From contig NW_018405627.1 in NCBI RefSeq assembly GCF_002113885.1, forward strand, positions 955,869 through 1,019,868: DNA of 64,000 bases. The letters run 5' to 3'. Position numbers: made by a program. Origin of the DNA: Mizuhopecten yessoensis. Taxonomy: Eukaryota. This document shows positions 15,001 to 33,000 of the stretch, in pieces (position 1 is the first letter of the stretch; the number at the start of each line of letters is the position of its first letter).

Positions 15001-18000
15001 TAAAATACGAAGTTAGAACACAGCGATTGAGACTTAGTCAGTCCTGGATAGCTCACTTGCCTTTCACCAAGGCGGCCTGGGTTCGATTCGGGATTCGACG
15101 TAAAAAGTATGGGGTCACTTGCCGGACACGTGGGTTTTCTCCGGGTACTCCGGTTTTCTGCCACATTAACACCTCCTCGCGCTGACATCCGGGCCAACAA
15201 GAGTGAATAGTATAAGCTGCAAAAACGTGTTTCATAATTTTTGTAAAATAAATAAAGCTTATATTTATATGAACATATTTCCAAGCTGCTGAGGCTTATT
15301 TAACATATCATGTCTAAAGGGTTCGAAATTATTCCCAGATAAATAACGAAAAGTACGGATGCCTGTTGATTAATTTATTACTTTACAAATGAATTTTTAT
15401 TGCCGCAACAGAAAAATGAAAAAAAAAAAATAATGTTACAAAATTGATAAATAATGAACAATCTTCATTATAGTTATTCCAGCATTGATTAAAATATTTA
15501 TACAAAAATCAAAAGCGATTATGCAATTTTCAAAATTTAATTGTAACGGTCGTTGAAAACATACAATTTTAAGAAAATTAGAACTGATTTTTGCTCGTTT
15601 TTCTTCTTTACCCTACAACTAGCACAATCCTGATATGCAAACAATATACATACAAAAAGTGTAACTCAGAGTAGACTTATATTTCTCGATAAACTAGTGA
15701 AAGTGAATTAATGTACATCTGTAACAAGATCGGAAAATCACGAAAACGTTTCAGTTGAATATCCGGTTTATACCACAATTCATATATTGAAGTTTTTAAT
15801 CTTTTTATCAAATGTATTTTAACTTCTTAAAGTGGGAAATAATTCGATTTGATTAAGATGTGATAATACCAGTGCCACGTTAAATTTTGTGACGTCACGA
15901 TGCATTCTGTTACTATTTTCATCATTATTTTAGATTGAACTATCTTAGTATTAAAAAATTAACAATCTGCAACATACGTTTCATTTCATCTGTAAACGTG
16001 TGCGTGTTTTTCAAATTCAAGAACTGATTTGGGCAACAATGTACAATCATAATCTACTCGAATATTTGGAACACATTATAAAACATTTTCTAAACTGATA
16101 CTAATTTGATGATAGAAAAATATCAAAAATTACTGCAACAACAAAAAAAATGACGTCAACATCAAGCCTATGGTAGTTTGTACTTAAATTTTGTCATAAT
16201 TTACACAACTAAAACATTGCAAGAAACACGTGGGAAAATATTGAAAAAACAAATCATTATATACATGTATCTACTTGTTAGCATAATATTTCAAGTTACG
16301 ATGTAAACCCTTAAATAACCATACGGAATCAAAATTTCGATAAAATAATAGAAAGATAAAAAAAACTTTGAACGATGTTCAGGACTTTCCCTCGCACTAT
16401 TCGAGACTGAACTTGTTGTGGACTGTAATTCAACGTTTGACAAAAATTCCCGGATTTTCTGCAATTGATGTTTGTCACATAGAAGGATGGACACTACAAA
16501 CAATACGACATACATTGTTCCTATTGTACCCGGTAAAACTGTTAAACAAAAGACAATACATAAAACTCAAGACTTACTCTTGAAAAAGCCATCAACAAAT
16601 ACACTATCCGTTATCACAATATTTGCCACCAAGAAAAACCAGAAACAGAAGAAGTCAATCGCTGACGTCACATCCGGCCAAGTCAACTCCAGTTCTACGA
16701 ACGGTTTCACAGGCGAAAGCTTTGCTTGGTCTTCCAACGGGGATTTTCCCATTTTTCCTTTGCCATTCGAAACGGTAGCCTCAATTTTACTCAGGTCCTG
16801 AACTTTCTTATTCGACTTGTGGCACCGCAACGCTTTGCTTAAGCGAACGATCATTTTTGCTAACATGGGTACTTCAGTATCACGATAGTGAAGTCGAAGC
16901 TCCAAAGTAGTGATCATGACAATTGCAGTGCCCAAAGACAGGAGTAATATAAGATACAAACTTAATAGCGACATCGAAGAACTAACTGGAAGTGACGCAC
17001 TTACAATTGTTAGAAAGACAGCGAACGCCAAATATAACGTCATGATATAGCCCATCTTCTCACCACTATCAACAGGTAAGGCAAAAACGAACACAGACAG
17101 CAGTGACAACATTATGATGGGAAGCACGACATTGTAAAGAATGTACTGAGGTTTCCTCTTTACCGTGATAGAGAATGTAACAATAGCTCCCTCCTGCTGT
17201 GATTCTGAAGATTTGGCAGACGTTGTTAGGAGATCCCATTCGCCATTGGTCTGATACTCATCAAGTAAGATACCTTTACTCCCTAGCTCGACGTCAACGT
17301 CACTCAGCGGGCTAGTCCAAACACCAAATTTGATGTCGCATGTTTGTTTGTCAAAAGGGAAATATTGTATATTAATCGAACATTTCGTCTCAAACACCTC
17401 GTACGGACGCCAATTGACTAGGCCTTCGGCATATATTGTAGTCAGTAAAAAGTCATCCCCAAGCTCCTTCAGTTTTGTAAAACCATTTTCCAAAGCAATA
17501 TCCGGTTTCCATATATTTTTCTGTGGTACGTATATGACCTCAGTATCGTTATCAGCAGACGGGTCCCAATTGATGTAGTCGTTTATCCAATATAGCTCCA
17601 AGAATGCCGTGGAAGACATTTTTTCTTGAACCTCGTCGATGTCGGTTATTCCAACTAGATTCAAATTCACGTACATAACAGTAGGAAGTGACTGGTCTGC
17701 AGAAGGACGAACCATCTTGTTGTACGAGTTGGTTGTGAAGATGTTTGTGAGCAGGGCCTTTACATCATCATGTGTGTTCGATGTGACAGGACAAAACAAA
17801 ATGGCCACCACACCAAGCAGCAATACAAGGGAAATAGTCCTCATTGTTATCACCTATTCTTCAGTTATGTAAAAGATGCTTCACAAAAGGTACCTTACAA
17901 ATTCACGCGTCTCACTTCCTTTACATGTACAGTCACTTCAAATCGGGAGTGTACGAACAATTATCTCCACTAGACTCCATAAACACAAACATGAACCGTC

Positions 18001-30000: not shown

Positions 30001-33000
30001 AAAGAATACAGTGGTGTACTTTGAAGGTAGAGCATTTACATTTTGTTTCATAGAATATGTTGTCGAAATAGGCAACAAGCTTAAGCTCGTCAAATATCAT
30101 TCAAAGTTTCGATTTCCTGAATAGCCAGTATAACAACACGACACGACATGCTTCCATTTTATCAGATAAAATATATATTATCTAATTATTGCTCAGAAAG
30201 TAGCCATTCACAAATATAGTAACCGTCATTGATATGTTTGCCAGCAAAAAGAACCAGAAGCAGAAGAAATCAATTGCTGACGTCACATCAGGCCAAGTGA
30301 ACTCTTCACTCGATTCTGGTTCTTCGAATGCTTTAACGACAGTCGGCTCCTCTACCGACTTGGCGTTTTCTGGGGTTTTCTTGTCTTTTGAAACGCGTTC
30401 CTCGAATTGGCTTACATCCTGTACTTTCTGAGTAGACTTGAGGCAGCGGAACGTTTTGCTGAAACGAATCATGCATCTAGCAAACTTGGGAATGGCACGA
30501 GAACTGTCTCGGTAGTGGATTCGGAGTTCCAGTGTCGTAATCATGACAATTGCTGTTCCCATACACAGAAGTAATATCAGGTACAAACTCAGTAACGACA
30601 TGGAGGCGCTAGATGGAAGTGACGCACTTACAATTGTTAGAAAAACTGCAAATGCCAGATACACTGTCATGATGTAGCCCATCTTCTCTCCACTGTCAAC
30701 GGGTAGAGCAAATACAAAGATAGAAAGCAATGACAACATGACAATGGGAAGCACAACGTTGTATGAAATGTACTGAGGTTTCCTCTTTACCGTGATAGAG
30801 AACGTGACAACAGCTCCATCCAGATTTGATTGCGTTGCGTTTGAAGATGTTTTGATAATATCCCATTCACCGTTCGGCTGATATTCATCTAGTAATATTC
30901 CTTTACTGCCTAGCTCAACGTCAACGTCACTCAGTGGGGTCATCCAAACTCCAAATTTGATGTCGCATGTTTGTTTGTCAAAAGGGAAATACTCTATGCT
31001 AATAGAACATTTCGTCTCGAACACCTCGAAAGGACGCCATTCGATGTGACCGTCGTTCGATATTCTAGTCAGTAAAAAGTCATCCCCAAGCTCCTTAAGT
31101 TTTGTAAAACCATTTTTCAAAGCAATGTCTGGTTTCCATATAGCACTCTGTTGAACGTATATGATGTTAGTGTTATTATAGTTGGATGGGTCCCATTGCA
31201 TATATTCGTCTATCCAGAAAATATCCAAGAATGCCGTGGAAGACATTTTTTCTTGAACCTCGTCGATGTCGGTTATTCCAATAAGATTCAAATTCAAGTA
31301 CAATATAATAAGGTGTGACTGGTCTGCAGCAGGACGAACCATCTTGTTGTAAGAGTTGGTTGTAAAGATGTTTGTGAGTAGGGCCTTTACATTATCATGT
31401 GTGTTTGATATGACAAGGCACGGTAATATGAACACCACACCAAGTAGTATAACCGGTAATTTACTTCCCATGGTTATCGCTGAATATGTCGTTCACTTGA
31501 ATCAAATTTGCAGAAAAAAAACTGCTGAAAGAATAACTTCACTTTTCAGGCATGTTCTACTTCCATATGGAATATGGTCTGAATATTCATAAAAGTTTCA
31601 AAGCAGCATTGTGTGGTCTTGCAAAATGATTAATAGAAATGGTTTCCAAAATCTGGGTGGCAATCGTTCACCCAAGTCCACAGTAAATGCCTCAAATATG
31701 TAACAAGTACGTAGTTGTTATCTTACCAGTTCACGAGAGTGTGAGGGCACCTTTATAGTTACCCACGGTTAATAGTGCAGATAATTCGTCACGAAATTTT
31801 AGGACTATCTACTGGCCCTTCCTTTGGTTACCTATAAATAATATATATATATTTAAATTCATCTCTTTTCACAACACCCTTTTGAGGAGGCATGCGCTTA
31901 TACAAATATTATTGACCGAAGACAAATGAAAGACAAGCTTAGCGATGTACAGTGTGACGATTGGAATAACTTTCCCGGCGTTAGTTTCTATCCGATTAAA
32001 TATGACGAAACCCTTTCTAAACATTTGATCTCCCTAGCCTAATCATTAGTATGTTATAAAAACAGGGTATAAACTATCCAATAAATGTTTACCCAAGAAC
32101 TATTTCCACAGAGTAGATGTATCAACTTGCAGACAATAGAATTGTTCTGTGTTAACGGGACCTCTTCATCAAAAGCCGTACACACTTCAAACCATATTGC
32201 CCGATCTTATCACATTTTAACGGTTCTTGTTTGTTTGTTTGTACGTTTGTTTTTTGTAAGATTTCTGACATATTATGCAATCAGCCATAAATCAGTATAC
32301 ATTTTTTAACGATGCTGGCTAGTATCAAAGTGTAGTATCTCATGATTTTTTCTCTACTTAAGACTGGCATTTTTCTATACACAGATTTTGATACGAGTCT
32401 CCCTTCTTCCACACTTTATTATTGATGGAAAATATTTTGAACGTATCCTTTCTTATGCTATTTTAGAATGTTAACATTTCCCTAGATAATGTATCTTCAT
32501 TTTCGCTTTCATATGGTTTGTATGGTTTTAGTATTTCGTTTTCGTTTTGTTTTTTGTTTTTGTTTTTGTTTTGTTCTGAAAATTGCCAGATGCATCCGGG
32601 AAAAATAAGATCTAACGACCAACAAAAAACTAAATAGTATCTATATGCTCTATACTTATGTTTCTTAGTTGGTCGTGAGATCTTATTTTTTCTATACTTA
32701 CATACTTCACATCGACAATTAATCTTTTTTGTTAAATAAATATATATACAATGTAAATGGGTGAGTTGGTCACTCCTCCATATCACTTCGTCCGCTATTT
32801 AACTGCCAATGGCCATTTTTGGATTATATTTACTGTTTGTTTTTGTCACATCACAACAAGTATTGCATTACAATTCAGATGACCGTTACGGTCCACGAAC
32901 CTCTTGTTTAAATAGATAGAAGCACAAGACATTATTGAACACGATTCTCCCTTCTGATACACACTACAGAATTAAGGGAGAATATTGTGGACGCATTATC

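What the first reader, a model, noticed from the sequence alone, without database searches (positions are those of the whole stretch)
17140..31290. A/B mosaic: silent-site-identical scaffold tracts alternate with hyperdivergent ligand-pocket loops
Seen: A and B share perfect nucleotide runs, for example about 57 nt over IDEVQEKMSSTAFL (17598-17654 vs 31225-31281), about 41 nt over YFPFDKQTCDIKFG and about 35 nt over FSITVKRKPQY. The TM region has many synonymous differences. The pocket segments differ strongly: loop D ELYWINDY/DIFWIDEY, loop A E/K charge swap, loop E TIYAEGLVN/RISNDGHIE, loop B WTS/WMT, loop C AKSSESQQE/SNATQSNLD. Inference: gene conversion homogenises the scaffold while diversifying selection retunes ligand specificity, as in sensory or immune receptor families.
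Basis: partly seen in the sequence, partly recalled or inferred. Interest (0 to 1): 0.65.

Follow-up and report, generated by a model that had tools for sequence, protein, structure and literature searches.

The report
Mosaic scallop nicotinic-receptor-like gene pair
Two neighbouring scallop ion-channel receptor genes are about three times more alike at silent DNA positions in the half that encodes the outer ligand-binding domain than in the membrane half, which points to a past exchange of DNA between gene copies, an ordinary process in tandem gene families.

Summary
The window is scallop DNA (best named hits Mizuhopecten yessoensis), not human. It carries a minus-strand array of nicotinic-receptor-like Cys-loop genes. 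A (16570-17844) and B (30185-31471) are intronless. C has two exons. D is truncated. A decayed relic is also present.

The silent-site mosaic is real and A/B-specific, but its one firmly supported boundary is the ligand-binding-domain/TM1 junction at codon 237. There, 35 of 167 aa-identical codons carry silent changes 5' and 60 of 123 do 3' (p=0.0004). dS is 0.39-0.45 against 1.07-1.32.

Alternation inside the extracellular domain is only marginal (p 0.04-0.13).

Diversifying selection is not shown. dN/dS is below 1. Differences are not enriched in the six binding loops taken together (20/71 vs 30/141, p=0.30). They lie at columns that vary across the whole family. A and B share no exclusive residue in the domain.

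Best reading: an old ectopic exchange (gene conversion or a chimeric crossover) among array members. It is an ordinary mechanism in a known expanded family. Dating and direction need orthologue DNA, which I could not obtain.

The parts
16567..17844 (-). Gene A: intronless nAChR-like Cys-loop subunit, 425 aa plus stop
   Evidence: ORF. Pfam Neur_chan_LBD 2.3e-42 and Neur_chan_memb 2.4e-11. Best solved-structure matches are nAChR alpha7/beta2, E about 1e-47.
30182..31471 (-). Gene B: intronless nAChR-like Cys-loop subunit, 429 aa plus stop
   Evidence: ORF. Pfam LBD 9e-44 and memb 8.6e-15. 72.7% aa and 77.9% nt identical to A.
17134..17778 (-). A, codons 22-236 (extracellular domain): the low silent-divergence segment versus B
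   Evidence: dS 0.39-0.45 by four methods. In the 5' block, codons 6-236, 35 of 167 aa-identical degenerate codons are changed.
30761..31405 (-). B, codons 22-236: the counterpart low silent-divergence segment
   Evidence: Same alignment; no gaps before column 324.
16570..17133 (-). A, codons 237 to end (TM1-3, intracellular loop, TM4): the high silent-divergence segment
   Evidence: 60 of 123 aa-identical codons changed. dS 1.07-1.32. Breakpoint before codon 237, chi2 24.9, p=0.0004.
30185..30760 (-). B, codons 237 to end: the counterpart high silent-divergence segment
17597..17654 (-). 58-nt perfect A/B run (B: 31224-31281), over VGITDIDEVQEKMSSTAFLE
   Evidence: C and D use different synonymous codons here.
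17324..17364 (-). 41-nt perfect run (B: 30951-30991), over YFPFDKQTCDIKFG in the Cys-loop
17140..17175 (-). 36-nt perfect run (B: 30767-30802), over FSITVKRKPQYI, directly 5' of the breakpoint
39208..39522 (-). Gene C exon 1 (105 codons; GT donor follows)
   Evidence: Pfam LBD 1.2e-13. The splice is consistent with database protein P0024.
36944..37873 (-). Gene C exon 2 (309 codons plus stop)
52051..52380 (-). Gene D exon 1 (110 codons; GTGAGT donor follows)
49716..50468 (-). Gene D exon 2. Probably a pseudogene: 9-nt deletion in M2, no TM4 found in the window, and the frame runs into a tandem repeat
13249..13443 (-). Decayed Cys-loop relic with stop codons (matches A residues 192-265)
   Evidence: tblastn E=0.001. 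Translation contains stops.
16988..17004 (-). 17-nt M2 motif, identical in A, B (30615-30631), C (37326-37342) and D (49930-49946)

Best explanation
A and B are two non-alpha-type, probably cation-selective nicotinic-receptor-like subunits. [quoted passage not shown]

Their coding sequences have two histories. The roughly 650 bp that encode the extracellular ligand-binding domain (codons about 22-236) share a more recent common ancestor than the roughly 570 bp that encode TM1-3, the intracellular loop and TM4.

The most likely cause is non-allelic homologous recombination within the array. Either a gene-conversion tract covered the extracellular domain, or a chimeric gene formed by exchange at the domain/TM1 junction, possibly involving a third paralogue such as P0004 ('E'). 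Ordinary divergence followed. In that phase the conserved beta-sandwich blocks stayed identical, while family-wide variable segments (loops E and C, beta1, the beta2-beta3 linker) accumulated or retained differences.

Shown: the silent-site heterogeneity, its specificity to the A/B pair, and the breakpoint.

Inferred: the recombination mechanism, its direction, and its age. The event is not recent, since dS is about 0.4.
For: 1. Silent changes occur in 35/167 aa-identical degenerate codons 5' of codon 237 and in 60/123 3' of it. This is the only significant split (chi2 24.9, p=0.0004). Shuffles stratified by amino acid reached the extracellular-domain deficit 0/10000 times.
2. dS is 0.39-0.45 against 1.07-1.32 by NG86, LWL85, YN00 and ML.
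3. It is not a regional constraint. In the same extracellular columns A-C, B-C, A-D, B-D and C-D have pS 0.61-0.93. C-D has pS 0.61 in the exon-2 part of that domain and 0.58 in TM1-3. C and D use other synonymous codons within the perfect runs.
4. A/B similarity stops at the coding sequence; the flanks do not align.
5. Protein trees lean the same way.
   - Extracellular domain: a tree with A+B as a clade is as good as the best tree (lnL 0.03 higher, p-AU 0.51).
   - TM plus intracellular part: the A+B clade costs 9.6 lnL (p-AU 0.055), and A sits with P0005/P0003 at support 84/79.
   - Sliding windows: A's nearest neighbour is Pecten P0002 (alone or tied) in 8 of the 11 windows starting at columns 20-220, and P0005 over TM1-3. 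B's is P0005 (alone or tied) in 7 of those 11 windows, and P0002/P0004 over the intracellular loop and TM4.
6. The setting favours exchange: at least four same-strand copies within 36 kb.
Against: - No protein-level signature of A/B homogenisation. A and B share 0 exclusive residues in the extracellular domain. A/B identity there (162/212) is lower than A-P0002 (178/212) and B-P0005 (167/212).
- The AU tests are borderline, and the clades were named after the trees had been seen.
- Orthogroup-diagnostic sites give no clean donor or recipient: extracellular domain 19 against 15 (p=0.61), intracellular loop plus TM4 12 against 22 (p=0.12).
- dS in the membrane half is near saturation, so the three-fold ratio is rough.
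- Only four local genes supply DNA. No orthologue DNA, and no DNA of paralogue P0004, could be examined, so direction and date are unknown.
- The fine-scale tract structure is not significant.
Confidence: 0.65

Rival explanations
1. Repeated, ongoing short gene-conversion tracts keep scaffold segments identical. Diversifying selection keeps, or drives, the ligand-pocket loops apart, as in immune or chemosensory receptor families.
For: - Perfect runs of 58, 41, 36, 31 and 30 nt sit on conserved blocks.
- Within the extracellular domain the top-3 run sum was reached in 372/10000 shuffles.
- A scan that included surplus changes picked codons 190-212 (37/1000).
- Loops E (7/15) and C (6/11) are strongly different.
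- Some orthogroup-fixed differences fall on canonical pocket positions: residues 136, 144 and 177.
- B carries OG1-type residues (F81, K172) inside two of the perfect runs.
Against: - No significant second breakpoint (p=0.13).
- Silent changes are not nearer to aa changes than expected (p=0.36).
- The longest run within the domain was reached in 867/10000 shuffles.
- dN/dS is below 1 locally (0.48), and 1.19 (0.70-2.00) against the domain-wide dS. The loops were chosen because they differ.
- The six loops together are not enriched (p=0.30). 30 of the 50 differences lie outside them.
- Differences track family-wide variability.
- A and B share 0 exclusive residues in the domain.
- The background dS of about 0.3-0.4 argues against recent or ongoing conversion.
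Confidence: 0.15
2. No exchange at all. A and B are duplicates of one age, and silent sites of the extracellular-domain region evolve more slowly in this pair. The cause would be nucleotide-level selection or a local mutation-rate difference.
For: Silent-site constraint does exist in these genes. A 17-nt M2 stretch is identical in all four copies although silent sites are otherwise saturated. Without orthologue DNA, an intrinsic rate difference cannot be excluded directly.
Against: - C-D, at comparable divergence, shows no slower extracellular domain: pS 0.61 and 0.85 in its two parts against 0.58 in TM1-3.
- The other four pairs (A-C, B-C, A-D, B-D) are near saturation there.
- Stratifying by amino acid removes codon-degeneracy effects.
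- Protein-tree discordance between the two halves points to different histories.
Confidence: 0.12
3. Chance clustering of silent differences, plus strong amino-acid conservation, in an ordinary old duplicate pair.
For: Within the extracellular domain alone the run lengths are near expectation.
Against: The gene-wide tests were reached in 0/10000 shuffles (domain deficit, max-chi2) and 5/10000 (top-3 runs). The breakpoint has p=0.0004.
Confidence: 0.03

Closest known systems
Expanded intronless, tandemly arrayed nAChR genes of bivalves (Jiao et al. 2019, PMC6896357; I saw the listing, the start of the abstract and passages found by term search)
   Same: Intronless (A, B) or one-intron (C, D) nAChR-like genes in a same-strand tandem array, with decayed copies among them. 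[quoted passage not shown]
   Different: The paper's main text has 0 occurrences of 'gene conversion' and 0 of 'positive selection'. It reads species-wise clustering of paralogues as expansion after speciation. Here the two halves of one pair have different silent divergence, so exchange between copies also shaped the family.
Cephalopod chemotactile receptors (CRs) (review PMC11526382; passages found by term search)
   Same: nAChR-derived, intronless pentameric channels that no longer use the ACh pocket. A and B likewise lack most of the aromatic box and the loop-C Cys pair.
   Different: CRs are reported to have pocket sites under strong diversifying selection; here that is not shown. No chemotactile receptor appears among the 60 best of the 90 solved-structure matches, where alpha7 and beta2 lead. 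Clade membership was not tested by a tree. No ligand or expression data exist for A or B.
Non-alpha (beta-type, structural/complementary) nAChR subunits
   Same: - Cys-loop C-x13-C.
- The loop-B Trp is kept.
- Loop C is 5 residues shorter than in alpha7 and has no vicinal Cys.
- A GEK motif precedes M2.
- beta2 and beta4 are among the best solved-structure matches, E 2.5e-47.
   Different: The loop-A Tyr position is E in A and K in B. The loop-D Trp position is F. Partners and ligand are unknown. The residue roles are recalled from the literature, not tested here.
Interlocus gene conversion in tandem receptor families, for example primate L/M opsins, MHC, and the pheromone families cited as Karn & Laukaitis 2012 in PMC11526382 (the examples are recalled, apart from that reference-list entry seen)
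   Same: A paralogue-specific, region-limited drop in silent divergence, with divergent flanks and discordant partition trees.
   Different: The exchange here is old (dS about 0.4) and domain-sized. Selection holding functional sites apart is not demonstrated.

Membership tests
Cys-loop pentameric ligand-gated ion channel superfamily | N-terminal ligand-binding domain followed by the transmembrane domain | tested here: met
   Pfam PF02931 and PF02932 score above their cut-offs in A, B and C exon 2, and in the D exons and C exon 1.
Cys-loop pentameric ligand-gated ion channel superfamily | Signature disulphide loop C-x13-C | tested here: met
   CSINIQYFPFDKQTC in A and CSISIEYFPFDKQTC in B. These align to the alpha7 Cys-loop.
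nAChR branch (cation-selective) | Best similarity to nAChR subunits, and a Glu at -1' (GEK) before M2 | tested here: met
   The top solved-structure matches are alpha7, beta2, beta4, alpha3 and alpha6, E about 1e-47; 5-HT3A follows at about 1e-38. SGEKMG is present. The selectivity rule itself is recalled, not tested.
Agonist-binding alpha-type nAChR subunit | Vicinal Cys-Cys in loop C | tested here: not met
   There is a 5-residue gap opposite the alpha7 'CCKEP' stretch, and no CC in the domain.
Agonist-binding alpha-type nAChR subunit | Aromatic box (alpha7 Y93, W149, Y188, Y195; complementary W55) | tested here: not met
   By the alignment: Y93 is E119 in A and K in B; W149 is W176 (kept); Y188 is Q in A and L in B; Y195 is G; W55 is F81. 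The alpha7 numbering and residue roles are recalled.
Interlocus gene conversion / ectopic recombination between paralogues | A region-limited drop in silent divergence with a significant breakpoint | tested here: met
Interlocus gene conversion / ectopic recombination between paralogues | The drop is specific to the pair and not a regional constraint | tested here: met
   The other five paralogue pairs have pS 0.61-0.93 in the extracellular-domain columns.
Interlocus gene conversion / ectopic recombination between paralogues | Phylogenetic incongruence between partitions when orthologues are included | tested here: inconclusive
   Proteins only. An A+B clade has p-AU 0.51 in the extracellular domain and 0.055 in the TM/intracellular part. 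A and B share 0 exclusive residues.
Pocket under diversifying selection (as in cephalopod CRs, MHC) | dN/dS above 1 at binding-site codons | tested here: inconclusive
   Pairwise only. Local dN/dS is 0.48; against the domain-wide dS it is 1.19 (0.70-2.00), and the loops were chosen post hoc. Site models need orthologue DNA.
Pocket under diversifying selection (as in cephalopod CRs, MHC) | Variable sites enriched at the orthosteric loops | tested here: not met
   20/71 in loops A-F against 30/141 outside, Fisher p=0.30. Only loops E and C are rich in differences. The loop limits were transferred by hand from the alignment, using recalled alpha7 limits.
Cephalopod chemotactile receptor clade | Groups with CRs rather than with nAChRs | not tested
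   No tree with CRs was built. No CR appears among the 60 listed of 90 solved-structure matches.

The most novel reading that the evidence does not exclude
Exchange of whole-domain or part-domain segments among array members is a regular feature of the bivalve nAChR-like expansion. The ligand-binding module and the pore/intracellular module of one gene would then routinely have different genealogies. That would (a) make part of the reported 'lineage-specific expansion' an effect of concerted evolution, and (b) let new pocket/pore combinations arise by shuffling, with loops E and C kept apart by selection as in chemosensory receptors.

Separately, a 17-nt palindromic stretch inside the M2 codons is identical in four copies whose silent sites are otherwise saturated. 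It could be a nucleotide-level functional element (splice-donor-like GTAAGT, a small hairpin, or a binding site) embedded in the pore helix.
Probability: 0.15. Interest if true: 0.55.

Novelty: new member of a known kind. Interest (0 to 1): 0.3.

Why it matters
Bivalve genomes hold 99-217 nAChR-like genes whose functions are unknown (PMC6896357, abstract passage seen). If copies exchange segments, gene trees built on whole proteins misdate duplications and blur orthology. This pair shows it: whole-protein, extracellular-domain and membrane-half trees place A and B differently.

For function, A and B are non-alpha-type subunits with E or K at the loop-A tyrosine position and different loops E and C. 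They are therefore reasonable candidates for a pair with different ligand or partner preferences. That is a hypothesis for expression and electrophysiology, not a result.

As a mechanism, gene conversion in a tandem array is textbook, so the finding is of modest general interest.

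Tried and rejected
1. Fine-scale tract structure inside the extracellular domain.
   - Recursive segmentation: p=0.13.
   - Distance of silent changes to aa changes: p=0.36.
   - Interval scans: 125/1000 and 37/1000.
   - Run lengths: 867 and 372 of 10000.
   - Taken together this is suggestive at most, so I did not adopt the alternation model.

2. Assigning A to orthogroup OG1 (P0002, P0007, P0008) and B to OG2 (P0005, P0003, P0009) to infer donor and recipient.
   - The 40 strictly diagnostic columns gave a mixed picture: 10 consistent, 13 reversed, 11 with both copies of one type, 6 other.
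   - The relaxed sign counts were not significant.
   - Direction is left open.

3. A recent donor for B's membrane half. Paralogue P0004 is only 74/88 identical to B in TM1-3, less than A (79/88). A recent replacement from P0004 is therefore rejected for TM1-3. The intracellular loop and TM4 of B are nearest to P0004 and P0002, but distantly (32/67, 30/39).

4. Whole-protein tree. A and B are unresolved within a 9-row clade (support 88/96).

5. A conserved RNA structure around the M2 motif. RNAalifold gave -10.7 kcal/mol. The motif's own 5-bp stem is invariant, so it offers no covariation.

6. Rfam gave 0 matches in the whole window.

7. Literature.
   - 'gene conversion' + 'nicotinic acetylcholine receptor' + 'paralog': 19 papers; none of the 12 listed is on molluscan receptors.
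   - 'concerted evolution' + 'acetylcholine receptor' + 'bivalve': 0 papers.
   - 'chemotactile receptor' + 'gene conversion': 1 review.

8. Not attempted.
   - Structure prediction, interface mapping and a complex prediction. The tools return no coordinates, and no binding claim is made.
   - Joined exon models of C and D. Their exons were aligned and scanned separately and never joined.
   - Any DNA-level work on orthologues.

Full report
WHAT IS THERE

The 64-kb window is AT-rich (GC 0.30-0.42) and holds one N, at 36340, which I left untouched.

Protein searches place it in a scallop.
- Protein A is 100% identical to a database entry that counts as the window's own.
- That entry's longest-contig figure (1,812,799 bases) is the same as for proteins named Mizuhopecten yessoensis.
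- The next-best named hits come from Pecten maximus, Ylistrum balloti and Argopecten irradians. The search returned 260 proteins with E<=0.001 among 8000 scored candidates and listed 120.
- The window is not human.

Stop-to-stop ORFs and tblastn show a minus-strand array of nicotinic-receptor-like Cys-loop genes:

| Gene | Coordinates | Notes |
|---|---|---|
| A | 16570-17844 | 425 aa, no intron |
| B | 30185-31471 | 429 aa, no intron |
| C | exon 1 39208-39522, exon 2 36947-37873 | two exons |
| D | exon 1 52051-52380, exon 2 49716-50468 | 9-nt deletion in M2, no TM4 anywhere in the window, frame runs into a tandem repeat; probably a pseudogene |
| relic | 13249-13443 | decayed, with stop codons |

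Pfam finds Neur_chan_LBD and Neur_chan_memb in A, B, C exon 2 and D exon 2, and Neur_chan_LBD alone in C exon 1 and D exon 1.

C and D were handled exon by exon throughout. I built and searched no joined model. For trees I used the database's own protein for C (P0024).

CHECKING THE OBSERVATION

A and B are 306/421 aa and 984/1263 nt identical.

| Length | In A | In B |
|---|---|---|
| 58 nt | 17597-17654 | 31224-31281 |
| 41 nt | 17324-17364 | 30951-30991 |
| 36 nt | 17140-17175 | 30767-30802 |
| 31 nt | 17439-17469 | 31066-31096 |
| 30 nt | 16987-17016 | 30614-30643 |

Of 433 aligned codon columns:
- 195 are identical and degenerate;
- 95 differ silently;
- 115 differ in amino acid;
- 16 are identical Met or Trp;
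- 12 are gaps.

A/B similarity is confined to the coding sequence (16587-17820 vs 30202-31447). The flanks do not align.

IS IT MORE THAN CHANCE?

I shuffled the 'silent change / no change' labels among aa-identical codons within each amino-acid class, so that codon degeneracy and composition are held fixed.

Over the whole gene:
- the longest identical-codon run (18) was reached in 50/10000 shuffles;
- the sum of the three longest runs (43) in 5/10000;
- the low count in the extracellular domain (29 of 154; shuffle mean 47.6) in 0/10000;
- the max-chi2 statistic in 0/10000.

Recursive segmentation found one split, before codon 237, which is the start of TM1.
- 5' of it, 35/167 aa-identical codons carry silent changes; 3' of it, 60/123 do.
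- chi2 is 24.9, p=0.0004.
- Neither half splits further (p=0.13 and 0.91).

dS by domain:

| Region | dS | Source |
|---|---|---|
| Extracellular domain | 0.39-0.45 (four methods) | |
| 3' part (codon 237 to end) | 1.07-1.32 (four methods) | |
| TM1-3 alone | 0.96-1.61 (four methods) | |

Inside the extracellular domain the evidence for alternating tracts is weak.
- Run lengths were reached in 867 and 372 of 10000 within-domain shuffles.
- Silent changes are not nearer to aa changes than expected (3636/10000).
- An interval scan picked codons 184-222 (11/25 inside vs 18/131 outside), reached in 125/1000 shuffles.
- With surplus changes in aa-different codons added, the scan picked codons 190-212, reached in 37/1000.

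So the robust mosaic is domain-scale. A finer patchwork is possible but not established.

IS IT SPECIFIC TO A/B?

Yes.
- In the same extracellular columns, A-C, B-C, A-D, B-D and C-D have pS 0.61-0.93.
- C-D, which is of intermediate divergence, has pS 0.61 in the exon-2 part of that domain and 0.58 in TM1-3, so the domain is not intrinsically slow.
- Inside the perfect runs, C and D encode the same residues with other codons.

WHAT THE PROTEINS ARE

The alignment to solved alpha7 and beta2 structures (E about 1e-47), together with recalled residue roles, shows:
- the Cys-loop and the loop-B Trp (W176) are kept;
- the loop-A Tyr position is E in A and K in B;
- the loop-D Trp position is F81 in both, and lies inside the 58-nt run;
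- loop C is five residues shorter and has no vicinal Cys;
- a GEK motif precedes M2.

A and B are therefore non-alpha-type, probably cation-selective subunits. They are unlikely to form a canonical ACh site on their principal face.

ARE THE DIFFERENCES POCKET-SPECIFIC AND SELECTED?

I set loop limits by hand from the alignment, using recalled alpha7 limits. A/B differences per loop:

| Loop | Differences |
|---|---|
| D | 3/9 |
| A | 1/11 |
| E | 7/15 |
| B | 2/8 |
| F | 1/17 |
| C | 6/11 |

- Together that is 20/71 in loops against 30/141 outside (Fisher p=0.30).
- 30 of the 50 differences lie elsewhere: beta1 (residues 53-59), residues 88-110, and residues 205-212.
- Differences sit on columns that vary among 11 other clade members (entropy 1.45 vs 0.52, p=3e-13). 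Only 3 of 85 family-invariant columns differ.
- dN/dS is 0.28 for the domain.
Against the dS of the rest of the domain the ratio is 1.19 (bootstrap 0.70-2.00), and the loops were chosen because they differ.

Diversifying selection is therefore not shown, and with two sequences it is not excluded either.

HISTORY

I aligned 18 proteins.
- They were A, B, the 13 best distinct hits P0002-P0012, P0014 and P0015, plus P0018, P0022 and P0024.
- I left out P0001, which is A itself, and P0013, which is a truncated B.
- The other 102 listed hits were not used.

Tree results:
- In the whole-protein tree, A and B are unresolved in a 9-row clade.
- In the extracellular domain, a tree with A+B as a clade is as good as the best tree (p-AU 0.51).
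- In the TM/intracellular part, the A+B clade costs 9.6 lnL (p-AU 0.055), and A joins Pecten P0005 and P0003 at support 84/79.
- These clades were named after the trees had been seen.

Sliding windows show the nearest neighbours changing at the same junction.
- A's nearest neighbour is P0002 (alone or tied) in 8 of the 11 windows starting at columns 20-220, and P0005 over TM1-3.
- B's is P0005 (alone or tied) in 7 of those 11 windows, and P0002/P0004 over the intracellular loop and TM4.

Against a recent A/B homogenisation:
- A-B identity in the domain (162/212) is below A-P0002 (178/212) and B-P0005 (167/212);
- A and B share no exclusive residue there;
- orthogroup-diagnostic sites give no clean direction.

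A third M. yessoensis paralogue lies outside the window (P0004, same longest-contig figure). It shares 18/22 signal-peptide residues with A and is the nearest protein to B in the intracellular loop and TM4. This hints that more than two copies have exchanged segments.

CONCLUSION ON MECHANISM

The best-supported account is an old ectopic exchange within the array.
- It was either a conversion tract of about 650 bp covering the ligand-binding domain, or formation of a chimeric gene at the domain/TM1 junction.
- Ordinary divergence followed.
- Purifying selection on the beta-sandwich blocks, together with a moderate dS of about 0.3-0.4, then suffices to give perfect runs of 30-58 nt.
- Direction and date cannot be settled without DNA of orthologues and of P0004, and no available tool supplies that.

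COMPARISON WITH WHAT IS KNOWN

Jiao et al. 2019 (PMC6896357; I saw the listing, the start of the abstract and passages found by term search) describe massive, intronless, tandem nAChR expansions in bivalves. The paper's main text never uses 'gene conversion' or 'positive selection'.

Cephalopod chemotactile receptors are the closest functional analogue. They are nAChR-derived and intronless, and their pocket is reported to be under diversifying selection (review PMC11526382, passages).

Three further searches found no report of conversion or concerted evolution in molluscan nAChR-like genes. These searches cover only the held library.

VERDICT

- The selection half is not shown.
- This is a new instance of a known process in a known family. 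Interest is modest.

SIDE OBSERVATION

A 17-nt stretch in the M2 codons (GTA AGT GCG TCA CTT CC) is identical in A, B, C and D, although silent sites between these pairs are otherwise near saturation.
- The identical-codon run is 7 in A/B/C, reached in 0/10000 shuffles.
- It is 5 in all four genes, reached in 20/10000.
- The stretch contains a GTAAGT and a 5-bp palindromic stem. Because the stem is invariant, no covariation test is possible.
- It remains unexplained.

Noticed in passing
16988-17004, 30615-30631, 37326-37342, 49930-49946 (all minus strand): A 17-nt stretch of the M2 pore-helix codons is identical at silent sites in all four receptor genes, although A/B against C/D silent sites are otherwise near saturation. 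The run test was reached in 0/10000 shuffles (A, B, C) and 20/10000 (all four). The stretch contains GTAAGT and a 5-bp palindromic stem. Its cause is unknown: a nucleotide-level constraint or micro-conversion.
   Followed up: partly
49716-50468 and 52051-52380 (minus); repeat 49010-49576: Gene D looks like a pseudogene. It has a 9-nt in-frame deletion (LTI) in M2, YVPVD in place of YFPFD in the Cys-loop, no TM4 detectable in the window, and a frame that runs into a tandem repeat of 43-128-nt units.
   Followed up: partly
13249-13443 (minus): A decayed fragment of a further Cys-loop gene, matching A residues 192-265 and containing stop codons. It extends the array beyond gene A.
   Followed up: partly
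Outside the window (protein P0004, same longest-contig figure of 1,812,799 bases): A third M. yessoensis paralogue shares 18/22 signal-peptide residues with A, including a 19-residue identical stretch. It is the nearest protein to B in the intracellular loop (32/67) and TM4 (30/39). This suggests exchanges among three copies. Its DNA could not be examined.
   Followed up: partly
43817-45016 (plus): An uninterrupted 400-aa ORF with an octopine/opine dehydrogenase domain (Pfam PF02317, 1.1e-29) lies between receptor genes C and D. It is apparently intronless.
   Followed up: no
58010-60040 (plus): A 676-aa open frame that encodes a multi-finger C2H2 zinc-finger protein.
   Followed up: no
46676-47116 (plus): A reverse-transcriptase fragment (Pfam RVT_1, 1.7e-09), i.e. 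a retroelement remnant, in the intergenic DNA between the opine dehydrogenase ORF and gene D.
   Followed up: no
2835-3567: A 138-nt tandem repeat in 5 copies at 98% identity. It gives long spurious open frames on the minus strand.
   Followed up: no
10259-10445, 14136-14329, 33855-34038: A dispersed repeat of about 185 nt, 84-95% identical, found in both orientations around the array. It is probably a small mobile element with inverted symmetry.
   Followed up: no
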